A stretch of 64,000 nucleotides of DNA from Octopus vulgaris. Taxonomy: Eukaryota. Positions 9,950 to 53,685 of this stretch are shown in pieces. The position numbers were made by a program, and so were the translations under genes. A model generated the notes under the pieces. The model saw only the letters and a list, made by a program, of their open reading frames with translations. It was not told the origin of the DNA and made no database searches. The first letter of the stretch is position 1. Each line of letters begins with the position of its first letter. The stretch is taken from positions 94,984,001 to 95,048,000 of the forward strand of contig OX597817.1 in the NCBI GenBank assembly GCA_951406725.2, written 5' to 3'.

Positions 9950-10078
9950 TTCTCTCTCTCTCTCTCTCTCTCTCTCTCTCTCTCTCTCTCTCTCTCTCTC
10001 TCTCTCTCTCTCTCTCTCTCTCTCTCTCTCTCTCTCTCCCTCTCTCTCTCTCTCTCTCCCCCTCTCTCTCTCTCTCTG
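9950..10078. repeat. (TC)n microsatellite, 5' flank of Tx1 LINE
   Basis: Read directly; a matching (TC)n tract lies at 15381-15434. Confidence 0.95.
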
Positions 10079-10237
10079 ATCGGTCGTGTTATTCTTTGCT
10101 CCGCAGTGAAAGATTGTTTTTGTGCTGAAAAGTTTGAAAATTTGCTGTTTTGGTCGTCGAGGCCACTTCTTTTCTGCTGTTGCAGCAGAGTTCTGCTGTT
10201 CTTTCCCCCTTGTTTCAAGGGGGAAGCGACGAAAAAT

Positions 10238-11747
10238 ATGAATTTGCAACCAATCTCCTCCGAGTCGGAGGAAAACGTTGAAAATTTGTTTGAAGGCATG
10301 AAGGCGAAAATGCGGGAGGAGGAAGGTAAAAGTAAAGAGACGTCTCACGCGCTCGTTACAAAAGCAGACGACAATATGTCTGGTGAAGCTACTAAACAAC
10401 AAGAAAAGTCAAAAATAAATTTTGCGAGTGCAGCAACTCGCCCCTGTGAAAATATAGTCATTAACAAGGAAGAATTAAAGAAATACCAAGGACTACTAAA
10501 AAAAGAAGGTGATAATGTGAAGTTGTTCCCTCCCAGTGAATTAATTTACGCGACGGAGAGAAAAACTGTCAAATAAGAAAATTGACTTCGTGCAGAGAGA
10601 AGCCATTGAAAAATGTTTGAGGCCGATATGGCAACAAACTACGTATATAACAAGGGGTAGTCGCTTCGGCACGGTAGAGGTGCGTTTCCCTAGCGAAGAA
10701 ATAGCTAGGGAACATTCAACAAGAACGTTGAAGTCAGACGAGGTAGTTCTTTTACCTTTTTATTTAGGAATGAGAACTTCCAGGATAACAGTCAGGGACA
10801 TTCCGCCCGAAATCGATGTGGACTTTATAATAGCAGCGATTCTCTTAGGCAAAGAGGAAGAAATTGCCATTCTTCAGTCTAAAAGATACCGCCCCACGAC
10901 CTGGTATGGACAAGACTTAGAACTTGTGATCCAAGCGAACCCCTCGGACTTGGAAAAATTGCCAAGCTCCCTCACCATTGGAGATAATACCACCTTGATG
11001 GTAATAGTCGAGGGAAGAAAACCTAGGTGTTATAAATGTGGCGAGAAAGGCCACATAAGGTCGAGCTGCAAGAAGACAGCCAAAGAAAATACTGCAGAGG
11101 CAAGCACGACGCCGAAAATAACTACACCGCTAGAAATAGCAGCCACGTCGCGCGCCCCAATTGCCGAAATTCAGCCGACAACGGGAGAAAACAACGACAA
11201 CAACAACAACAACATCCAGGAGTGGGTCACCATAGAACCTTCAAAAAGAAGACGGAAACGGAAAAATTCACCCTCTTCGGATACACAGGACTATACTCCG
11301 AGACAGACAAGCACACCCACACCCACAAATACAGTCGCAAACACACACGTAGCCAAAAAAACACACACACTGGAAAAAGCACACACAAACACACACACAC
11401 ACACCCCTCCACAATCACCTAACAAAAAAAAAAGAAACACCTTCACGGCGATAAATAAAAACAATAACCCATTAAGGGAAAAAATTATTTTACTGAAATC
11501 GGCGAAAAAATATATCGCAACAGATATAAATAGTATTATATCTGAAAATGTAGAATTTTATACAATAGATAACGCTGATTATTTTGAAATAAAAAAATCT
11601 TTTGCGGAGGACGTCGGCCCGTTACAGATGAACTTTTCAAGCCATCTGTACAGGCAATTCGCAAAAAAGCTGACCTCGCAAAACACAACACTCACAGACA
11701 GAAAAGAGGAGGGTGAAACTACACCCTCTCTTCTGTTAAAACAGTAA
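10238..11747 (+). pseudogene. Tx1 ORF1 (gag-like, zinc knuckle), one frameshift near 10575
   Basis: ATG at 10238. The two pieces 9896-10576 and 10590-11747 are in different frames. Knuckle motif CYKCGEKGHIRSSC. Confidence 0.8.
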
Positions 11748-11766
11748 GTTTTAAACATTCGACTAA

Positions 11767-51570: not shown

Positions 51571-51814
51571 TATATATATATATATATATATATATATATA
51601 TATATATATGTATGTATGTATGTATGTTGGGATGTATGTATGTATGTTTGTATGCATGTATATATATATATATATATATATACACACACATGTATATATA
51701 TATACATACATGCATATATATATATATATACACACATATGTATACATACATGCATATATATACACACATATTTATATACATATATATACACATACATATA
51801 CACACACACATACA

Positions 51815-52515
51815 GGTACTACTTATGAAAAGTGGACCTGACGCGCGCACCCACGCTAGTCAGTGGACGTTCGCACCCGCGCTAGTCAGTAGACGGACGC
51901 GCGCACACGAACACGCGCAAGTCAGTGACAACCTCGATAAAGGAACCCTCCACGTGTATAAATATGTGTAAATTGTAAATGGGGGGATTTTTATCTATCT
52001 ATCTATCTGTCTAATAAAACAAACTATTGAATGAATGAATGAAAAGAGAGGGAGAGAGAGACAAAATAGGATTTTTAGTGTTTGTGAATAATCGGTGCTC
52101 TGAAACTCTGCTCCTCCTTATCACAAAGTATACAAAACCAGAAACAACTACCCATTCTGATTGTTGGAGTGAATACAATGGAATAGCTGAAATTGATGTT
52201 GAACCACGGTATTCCCATTTCAAAATGAATCATAAAGAAAACACTGCGGATCCAGTAACTAAAGTGCATACCAATTCATTTCAATGTTACTGGGAAAATG
52301 CAAAAAGCAGATTCAACAGTATGATGGGAGTACACAACCCCCACCCCCACTTACAGTTTACACATATTTACATGTGTAGAGTGTTTATTTTTTATCGCAA
52401 GTGCCACTGACTTGCGCGTGTGCGTACGTGCGTCCGTCTACTTACCAGCGAGGATGCGCGTTTCCACTGACTAGGACGGGTGTGCACGTCGGGTCCACTC
52501 TTCTTAAGTAGTACC
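51815..52515 (+). mobile_element. Merlin/IS1595-like internally deleted DNA transposon
   Basis: ~125-bp imperfect TIRs (GGTACTACTTA/TAAGTAGTACC) and an 8-bp direct repeat CACATACA. The internal ORF 52039-52410 has TTTHSDCWSEY..HFKMNH..DPVTKVHTNSFQCYW. Confidence 0.82.
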
Positions 52516-52744
52516 CACATACACACACACACACACACACGCACACACATACACGCACACGCACACACATATATAGTCAACGACTAGTGAAGAGGTTGCA
52601 AAACGCAACGAAGACTTTAGAAAAATTAAATAAGTAAATTAAATAAGTTAAATAAGTAAAGTGGAAATCGAAGAGTGTGTTGAGTAATAAATAAGACACT
52701 AAAAGAGAATGAGTCTCCCCAGACACAATAATATATACATATAC

Positions 52745-53685
52745 AGATAGATAGATAGATAGATAGATAGATAGATAGATAGATAGATAGATAGATAGAT
52801 AGATAGATAGATAGATAGATAGACAGACAGACAGACACACAGACACACAGACAGACACACAGATAGATAGATAGATATATAGATAGATAGATAGATAGAT
52901 AGATAGATAGATAGATAGATAGATAGATAGACAGATAGATAGCTAGATAGATAGACACACAGACAGACAGACAGACAGATAGATAGATAGATAGATAGAT
53001 AGATAGATAGATAGATAGATAGATAGATAGATAGATAGATAGATAAGTTTCTTTATTGGCCACACAGGGCTGCACACAGATGGGACAAGTTACAAGGTAG
53101 AGCTTTTCTTTTGGGGGATGAAAAAAAGGGGTGGCGTAGGTTTTCGATCAAGAGGGATCGTAAAAGGGAAGAAAAGAACAAAAAAAATAATAAAAAATGA
53201 AAAAATAAATAGAATAAAAAATAAAAGAATAAAAGAAAAAAAAAGAAAGGGAAAAAGGAACAAAAGAAAAGAGAAAAAAGAAGAAAAAGGGGAAAAAAGG
53301 GGAAGAGGAAAAAAACGATCTATAGGGATCGTGTATCACAGTGTTATGATATATGGTGTAAAGGGGAAAGCAAGTAAGGTTTATCCGTGGGAAGAAAAGC
53401 CTACGAAAAAGACCACGGTAACCTTGGTCAATATTGTTATATGTTACCACATTTGTTTGCAAGTGGGTAACCCTCTGATAGATAGATAGATAGATAGATA
53501 GATAGATAGATAGATAGATAGATAGATAGATAGATAGATAGATAGACAGACACACAGACAGATAGATAGATAGATAGATAGATAGATAGATAGATAGATA
53601 GATAGATAGATAGATAGATAGATAGATAGATAGATAGATAGATAGATAGATAGATAGATAGATAGATAGATAGATAGATAGATAT
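52745..53685. repeat. (GATA)n tracts flanking an inserted fragment
   Basis: Read directly at 52745-53045 and 53477-53685. Confidence 0.95.
53046..53476 (-). mobile_element. Probable 3'UTR fragment of a third Tx1 family embedded in (TATC)n
   Basis: The minus strand ends cagccctgtgtggccaataaagaaact + (TATC)n, cf. cagtccttgtggccaataaaaagaa at ~31480 and tatggtgaataaagaaata at ~15362. Confidence 0.65.

What the first reader, a model, noticed from the sequence alone, without database searches (positions are those of the whole stretch)
9950..53685. Sister Tx1 LINE families apparently switching microsatellite targets: (TC)n, (ATT)n, (TATC)n
Seen: three related 3' ends (..tatggtgAATAAAGAAAta, ..tgtggccAATAAAAAGAA, ..tgtggccAATAAAGAAAct). 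Each is flanked on BOTH sides by a different microsatellite: 10079-15380 in (TC)n, 30981-31505 in (ATT)n and 53046-53476 in (TATC)n. A fourth fragment (47637-48245) sits in an AAT/AAC-rich tract. Known: Tx1-clade elements are often sequence-specific (Kibi targets TC repeats, Koshi targets TTC repeats). Inference: a radiation of closely related cephalopod Tx1 families with retargeted specificity, set by the endonuclease or by pairing of the RNA 3' tail. I do not know of (ATT)n- or (GATA)n-specific Tx1 families.
Basis: partly seen in the sequence, partly recalled or inferred. Interest (0 to 1): 0.75.

Follow-up and report, generated by a model that had tools for sequence, protein, structure and literature searches.

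The report
Octopod LINEs choosing different microsatellite targets
Three related jumping-gene (LINE) families in what is likely an octopus genome each sit in their own simple repeat (TC, ATT or TATC), likely because their DNA-cutting enzymes have diverged to prefer different sequences; repeat-seeking LINEs are known, but I found no report of the ATT and TATC targets for this group.

Summary
Real, and genome-wide. Family A (356 exact 3' ends) is followed by (TC)n in 53 of 56 sampled copies, B (494) by (ATT)n in 58 of 58, the C group (7,833) by (TATC)n in 47 of 56. The 5' junctions carry the same repeat in 17 of 38, 15 of 40 and 37 of 42 (background 0.7-1.8%). 53046-53476 is the 3' UTR of an ORF2-bearing family. 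For C, 13 of 71 copies have 9-16 bp target-site duplications running into non-repeat sequence, some with no TATC tail, so the repeat is a target, not a tail; for A and B this test was not above chance. Corrections: only B and C are sisters (APE 68% identical); A groups with relatives that target a SINE, a Helitron-like repeat or no fixed site; fragment 47637-48245 says nothing about targeting. The hairpin loop usually credited with specificity is near-identical in B and C. Endonuclease-set targeting is likely but untested. New variant of Kibi/Koshi-type behaviour. This scan has noted these ATT- and TATC-targeting families before, in this and other genomes.

The parts
9951..10077 (+). (TC)n tract, 5' flank of family A copy
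10079..15380 (+). Family A, full-length L1/Tx1-type LINE, decayed (stops/frameshifts in ORF1 and ORF2); ends AATAAA + 6 nt, no poly(A)
   Evidence: same 5' end as five other full-length copies, all preceded by TC repeats
10545..11747 (+). ORF1 (main open frame; 5' part broken), zinc knuckle at about 11025-11075
   Evidence: PF00098
11767..12549 (+). ORF2 APE endonuclease domain, followed by a frameshift; hairpin loop WTWARNDGSSRSYID
   Evidence: PF03372; L1-EN and loop-graft structures 2v0r, 2v0s, 1vyb
13054..15159 (+). ORF2 reverse transcriptase and C-terminal zinc-binding region
   Evidence: PF00078, PF13966
15381..15434 (+). (CT)n tract, 3' flank of family A copy
30954..30980 (+). (ATT)n tract, 5' flank of family B copy (end of a GAT/GAC/ATT compound tract)
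30983..31506 (+). Family B, 5'-truncated copy: last 84 codons of ORF2 and 3' UTR; 90-92% identical to longer copies
31507..31525 (+). (ATT)n tract ending in G, 3' flank of family B copy; the same 19 letters stand at the 5' junction (possible target-site duplication)
47635..48262 (+). Older fragment of the same lineage, cut at both ends; closest to family B (77%); in an 18-bp-period minisatellite; not informative on target
52745..53045 (-). (TATC)n tract (GATA on + strand), 3' flank of family C copy
53046..53476 (-). Family C, 5'-truncated copy, 3' UTR only; 88-95% identical to the 3' UTR of five copies that carry ORF2 upstream
53477..53684 (-). (TATC)n tract (GATA on + strand), 5' flank of family C copy

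Best explanation
These are three families of one L1/Tx1-type LINE lineage that each lie in their own microsatellite in one fixed orientation, likely because each family's APE endonuclease nicks the purine-rich strand of that repeat and the nick would prime reverse transcription. For the TATC group the junctions place the first cut at TATC|TATC on the element strand (leftmost possible position) and the duplication at 9-16 bp, most often 13-14; the duplication restores the target, which would explain the head-to-tail stacks. The RNA likely runs a few bases past AATAAA into the flanking repeat and may help priming in register (no poly(A) is copied), but this is inferred and secondary. The ATT/TATC difference likely lies outside the betaB6-betaB5 hairpin, with the loop holding the L1 R155-equivalent as first candidate.
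For: Shown: family-specific repeats at 3' (53/56, 58/58, 47/56) and 5' junctions (17/38, 15/40, 37/42) versus 0.7%, 1.8%, 1.3% background. Genome-wide about 84% of C-group ends are followed at once by TATCTAT (6,579 vs 7,833). 13 of 71 C-group copies have duplications anchored in non-repeat sequence starting exactly 6 nt after AATAAA, versus 0.2 on average in shuffled pairs; L080, L264, L268, L286, L288, L290 carry no TATC tail at all. Sequence upstream of the cut, which the primer strand cannot offer to the RNA, is selected too: 7 of 24 copies whose downstream flank is not TATC have a TATC tract upstream, and the base before the duplication is a pyrimidine in 12 of 13. Of 14 B copies without ATT at the 5' junction, 6 have a 5' flank that in other copies of the host repeat runs into (ATT)n within 0-60 bp (control 3 of 39), as expected from target deletion. 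A relative with a different APE lands at one site of a SINE in 20 of 20 copies. Targets map on clades of the APE and RT trees. From papers: endonuclease swap changes target in SART1/TRAS1 (PMC7265360, passages); isolated Tx1L endonuclease nicks its target (PMC1950540, passages).
Against: No biochemistry. Anchored duplications were not above shuffled pairs for A (8 of 38 vs 1-8) or B (1 of 40 vs 0-3), and 3' flanks carry the repeat far more often than 5' flanks in A and B, which an RNA-supplied tail would also give. Three A copies (L029, L143, L151) seem to have 6-9 extra CT-type letters at the 3' junction, though within the chance range of that test. The off-target C sample was selected to begin with TAT, so the TAT start is by construction there. 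APE tree and RT tree agree, so the trees cannot single out the endonuclease. About five B copies have unexplained 5' flanks. 39 APE positions differ between B and all TATC subfamilies, so the R155-equivalent is one candidate among many.
Confidence: 0.72

Rival explanations
1. Targeting is set mainly by RNA-DNA pairing: transcripts read through into the donor's flanking repeat, and a loosely specific endonuclease (pyrimidine then TA/TC) is productive only where the nicked strand pairs with that repeat; a family would switch target when a master copy lands in a new repeat.
For: AATAAA lies only 6-9 nt from the element end and poly(A) is absent (0 of 57, 0 of 60, 1 of 90), so the RNA probably includes flank. 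B and C have near-identical hairpin loops. Possible extra CT letters in three A copies. Annealing of target-like RNA improves accuracy in SART1 and R1Bm (PMC7265360, passages).
Against: Upstream TATC is selected where downstream is not TATC (7 of 24). Five TATC subfamilies whose APEs are 78-91% identical kept the same target although about 6% of C-group ends lie at TAT-not-C sites (486 vs 7,833), which would seed drift under this model. Clean duplications in unique DNA with at most 3 nt of possible pairing.
Confidence: 0.17
2. For A and B (not C) the repeat is mostly an element-made tail, generated by template slippage or later expansion, and insertion is only loosely biased to pyrimidine- or AT-rich DNA.
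For: 3' versus 5' asymmetry (53/56 vs 17/38; 58/58 vs 15/40); anchored duplications not above chance for A and B.
Against: 5' enrichment of 20-65-fold for the family's own motif; five of five full-length A copies with an intact 5' end are preceded by TC repeats; a search for duplications beginning beyond the repeat tract found only a few short or repeat-like matches; host-repeat reconstruction for B; L024 has a 25-bp duplication ending in unique sequence with TC repeats continuing upstream.
Confidence: 0.08
3. Passive accumulation: insertions are random and survive in repeat-rich DNA.
For: The genome is very rich in microsatellites (122 tandem-repeat rows in this window).
Against: Fixed orientation, fixed register at the 3' junction and family-specific motif with almost no cross-family hits; young copies (97-99% identical) already show it.
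Confidence: 0.02

Closest known systems
Kibi (TC)n and Koshi (TTC)n of teleost fish; crocodilian Tx1 families in (TTCC)n/(TTTC)n (PMC4494074 passages and section 15; PMC3812793 passages)
   Same: APE-type LINEs of the Tx1 group inserted in a specific microsatellite; related families on related repeats; family A uses the Kibi repeat.
   Different: (ATT)n and (TATC)n are not among the targets listed for Tx1 in those papers; host is likely an octopod; at least five target types co-occur in one lineage of one genome. Relation to Kibi/Koshi by descent was not tested (no named sequence was retrieved).
Tx1L of Xenopus (in Tx1D) and crocodilian Tx1-Mar (in Mariner-N4) (PMC4494074, PMC1950540, passages)
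   Same: Relatives found here insert at one site of another repeat: a SINE head (20 of 20) and a Helitron-like repeat (4 of 5 full-length copies).
   Different: Different host repeats; hairpin loop here has the L1 length, two residues shorter than the Tx1L graft.
Dong elements in TAA microsatellites (PMC3812793 passage; Dong-R4 is abundant in an octopus, PMC13282606 Table 1 passage)
   Same: Same repeat class as family B's target.
   Different: Recalled, not from a call: Dong is R4-clade with a restriction-like endonuclease, a different enzyme; family B encodes an APE domain.
SART1/TRAS1, R1Bm, Waldo, Mino (R1 clade)
   Same: APE-determined repeat targeting, with help from RNA-target annealing in SART1/R1Bm (PMC7265360 passages); tandem stacking.
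   Different: Different clade; those with poly(A) tails keep them, the families here have none.

Membership tests
APE-type non-LTR retrotransposon, L1 group | ORF2 with N-terminal APE endonuclease, RT and C-terminal zinc-binding region | tested here: met
   intact ORF2 of about 1,140-1,150 aa in L108, L171, L172, L179, L186, L193, L196, L206
APE-type non-LTR retrotransposon, L1 group | 5' truncation and target-site duplications (TPRT) | tested here: met
   (anchored duplications shown for the C group, single clear cases for A and for the relaxed family)
Tx1 clade | ORF1 with CCHC zinc knuckle ahead of ORF2 (feature recalled) | tested here: met
   PF00098 in 10545-11747
Tx1 clade | RT groups with named Tx1 members in a tree | tested here: inconclusive
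   Homologue search and cluster look-up returned no protein named Tx1, Kibi or Koshi; trees hold only unnamed outgroups
Tx1 clade, target-specific family (criterion of PMC4494074: over 20% of flanks of one type) | More than 20% of flanks are one repeat type | tested here: met
   84-100% at 3', 38-88% at 5'
Kibi | Insertion in (TC)n | tested here: met
   family A only
Kibi | Common descent with teleost Kibi elements | not testable with these tools
   no Kibi sequence available from any call
Endonuclease-determined targeting | Isolated endonuclease nicks the target repeat | not testable with these tools
   needs bench assay

The most novel reading that the evidence does not exclude
One octopod LINE lineage is a natural code-book for APE endonuclease specificity: families 48-68% identical in APE aim at TC, ATT, TATC, one SINE site, one Helitron-like site or no fixed site; the targets TCTC, TATC and TATT/TTAT are a base or so apart; and the ATT-TATC switch happened without changing the betaB6-betaB5 hairpin, through the loop that holds the L1 R155-equivalent (Tyr in TC and TATC families, Arg plus a 2-3 residue insertion in the ATT family). 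A few swaps would then reprogram a LINE endonuclease, which loop grafting in L1 failed to do.
Probability: 0.3. Interest if true: 0.72.

Novelty: new variant of a known kind. Interest (0 to 1): 0.52.

Why it matters
How APE endonucleases of LINEs change target is open: a 2013 review says microsatellite targeting is not well understood (PMC3812793, passage), and grafting the Tx1L or R1Bm hairpin onto L1-EN did not transfer specificity (PMC1950540, passages). Here young families with intact ORF2s, in one genome, differ in target, and one sister pair (ATT vs TATC) shares the hairpin, which narrows the test to a short list of positions. The TATC group alone has at least 7,800 ends and stacks in tandem, so it also shapes GATA microsatellites in this genome. 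The principle itself (Tx1 families changing repeat target) is known.

Tried and rejected
One search's query included 5 nt of the CT flank and so favoured TC-flanked copies; I repeated with a pattern that stops before the flank: 29 of 30 followed by CT repeats by eye, 26 of 27 by rule after dropping three loci already sampled. RNA 3' ends: no RNA holder listed on record; contigs of four runs were laid on L172, but the repeat-rich 3' end was skipped, so nothing was learned on expression or read-through. Anchored-duplication test for A and B: not above shuffled pairs. Duplications distal to the repeat tract (tail model): few, short or repeat-like. The fourth fragment as an AAT/AAC-specific family: rejected. 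The hairpin loop as the ATT/TATC switch: rejected, L180 (TATC) has the same loop as family B. Placement against named Tx1 elements: failed, no named homologues. ARAGORN finds no tRNA in the SINE-like target; 'tRNA-derived' rests on recall and on an earlier scan note. First tree run timed out after the APE tree; RT and APE trees were rerun by the quick method with long-branch warnings on the outgroups. Supplements of PMC4494074, whose Fig. 3 and supplementary figures list Tx1 targets, could not be seen and may hold ATT or GATA targets.

Full report
Observation. 10079-15380 (family A) is a full-length two-ORF LINE with a zinc knuckle in ORF1 and APE, RT and zf-RVT in ORF2, broken by stops and frameshifts, between (TC)n tracts. 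About 30983-31506 (family B) is the last 84 codons of ORF2 plus 3' UTR between (ATT)n tracts. The window is G000:C4:94984001-95048000 in a 2.8-Gb genome. The nearest named homologue of ORF2 is an Argonauta hians protein at 66%, in line with an octopod host.

Genome-wide flanks. Exact 3'-end patterns that stop before the flank gave 356 matches for A, 494 for B (the window copy differs by one letter from that pattern) and 7,833 for C with its close TATC subfamilies; all are lower bounds. I sampled 60 loci per family: 30 best BLAST hits and the first 30 pattern matches. After dropping the window's own copies and duplicates, a run of at least 8 letters of the family's motif follows the end in 53 of 56 (A), 58 of 58 (B) and 47 of 56 (C), and stands at the 5' junction in 17 of 38, 15 of 40 and 37 of 42; the other copies' 5' ends lay outside the fetched stretch. 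Background in 4,620 distal 30-mers is 0.7%, 1.8% and 1.3%. Another family's motif appears in at most 2 copies per family and the complementary strand's motif in 1 of 170 3' flanks. One search's query held 5 letters of flank; the unbiased A sample alone gives 26 of 27 and 10 of 23. Across the genome 6,579 C-group ends are followed at once by TATCTAT (about 84% of 7,833, the patterns differ by one 5' letter) and 486 by TAT plus a letter other than C.

Target or tail. For the C group, 13 of 71 copies with both junctions in view (random and off-target samples pooled) have a 9-16 bp duplication that begins 6 letters after AATAAA and runs into non-repeat sequence; shuffled pairs give 0.2. Six of them (L080, L264, L268, L286, L288, L290) have no TATC tail, so the element does not bring one. 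Eight of the 13 have TATC just upstream, and 7 of 24 copies whose downstream flank is not TATC have a TATC tract upstream. The off-target sample was chosen to start with TAT. For A and B the same kind of test was not above chance (8 of 38 vs 1-8; 1 of 40 vs 0-3), though L024 is a clear single case. For B, 6 of 14 non-ATT 5' flanks belong to host repeats whose other copies run into (ATT)n within 0-60 bp (control 3 of 39), one is an inverted piece of the element, two are ATT-like and about five stay unexplained. Five of five full-length A copies with an intact 5' end are preceded by TC repeats. Poly(A) is absent: 0 of 57, 0 of 60, 1 of 90. Head-to-tail stacks occur, e.g. seven B ends at about 5.87-kb spacing on C4.

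The radiation. A degenerate APE motif has 2,900 matches; I fetched 60 of the 100 listed, chosen to cover the motif variants. Besides A and B these held five TATC subfamilies, a family at one site in a SINE head (105 exact ends; 20 of 20 sampled, one with a mismatch), a family followed by the same Helitron-like repeat in 4 of 5 copies ('Helitron-like' is my reading of a hairpin plus CTAG end) and a family with 15-20 bp duplications and no common target. About 15 old or rearranged copies gave no readable 3' end. APE (careful, quick with outgroups) and RT trees agree: all form one lineage apart from homologues at 40-44%; B and the TATC group are sisters; A sits with the SINE-, Helitron- and non-targeting families. 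APE identity is 68% for B-C and 54-59% for A against them. The direction of target changes cannot be read from this. The fourth fragment is closest to B (77%), lacks its 3' end, and most of its relatives with a readable end finish in (ATT)n.

Endonuclease. Alignment to L1-EN and the loop-graft structures identifies the betaB6-betaB5 hairpin. It reads ARNDGSSR in A, TNRIGSSR in B and [ST]NR[IVS]GSSR in the TATC subfamilies; one TATC copy (L180) matches B exactly. So the hairpin may separate A from B/C but not B from C. Thirty-nine positions differ between B (5 rows) and the TATC subfamilies (18 rows); among them is the position aligned with L1 R155 (Arg in B, Tyr in A and C; mapping by eye), next to a 2-3 residue insertion in B. 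PMC1950540 (passages) names R155 among residues expected to read the base downstream of the cut and predicts a role for that loop in R1Bm. This is a candidate, not a result.

Mechanism. Shown: family-specific, oriented, in-register location; pre-existing target and duplication length for C. Inferred: first nick on the purine-rich strand by the APE domain, target-primed reverse transcription, specificity mostly in the enzyme (0.72). The RNA probably includes some flanking repeat, since AATAAA lies 6-9 letters from the end; pairing as the main determinant gets 0.17. Public runs did not resolve RNA ends.

Known and new. PMC4494074 (passages, section 15; supplements not seen) lists Kibi (TC), Koshi (TTC) and crocodilian TTCC/TTTC Tx1 families and transposon-targeting ones. 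PMC3812793 (passages) lists ACAY, AC, TC, TTC and TAA (Dong) targets. PMC13282606 (passages) counts 13 recently active L1-Tx1 families in Octopus vulgaris and has no occurrence of the word 'target'. PMC7265360 (passages) gives the endonuclease swap and annealing precedents. Five searches found no paper with ATT- or GATA-specific Tx1; Kojima and Fujiwara 2004 and Repbase were not seen. Tx1 membership by tree is untested for want of named sequences. Earlier notes of this scan, looked up after my reading was formed, report the ATT, TATC and SINE-targeting families in this and other genomes; they are not independent support.

Verdict. A real feature and a new variant of a known kind: interest 0.52. 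Its value is as a ready test set for how LINE endonucleases change target.

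Noticed in passing
L206, L209, L321-L340 (G000 C1, C2): Sister LINE family inserted at one exact site in the head of an abundant SINE-like repeat; 105 exact 3' ends, 20 of 20 sampled at that site.
   Followed up: partly
L201-L205: Sister family followed by the same multicopy repeat in 4 of 5 copies; the repeat ends in a hairpin plus CTAG, Helitron-like.
   Followed up: partly
L191-L194: Sister family with no common target and clear 15-20 bp duplications: a relaxed member of the same lineage.
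   Followed up: partly
L205:about 6200-6300 (element strand): An abundant short repeat ends in a sequence nearly identical to the 3' end of the Helitron-targeting family, suggesting a SINE mobilised by this LINE lineage.
   Followed up: no
G000:C4:93799508-93841680; G000:C1:17000-58000: Tandem stacks: seven B ends at about 5.87-kb spacing plus two more; five APE-bearing TATC-family copies in one orientation near the start of C1.
   Followed up: no
window 31526-32274 and L037, L044, L045, L048: Family B often lands in the (ATT)n tails of other retroelements; the window copy sits between an ATT tract and the 3' part of such an element.
   Followed up: partly
window 2161-5452: Two old, decayed fragments of the same LINE lineage in opposite orientations.
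   Followed up: partly
window 55210-57573 and 62878-63642: 787-codon open frame with a weak RT match, plus a related fragment; looks Penelope-like by recall.
   Followed up: no
window 6593-9175: Decayed DNA-transposase-like fragments on both strands, by eye.
   Followed up: no
L114, L115, L116, L120, L124: Old relatives of the fourth fragment followed by CCT, AAC, ATC or TTC repeats instead of ATT; may be further old targets or drifted tracts.
   Followed up: no
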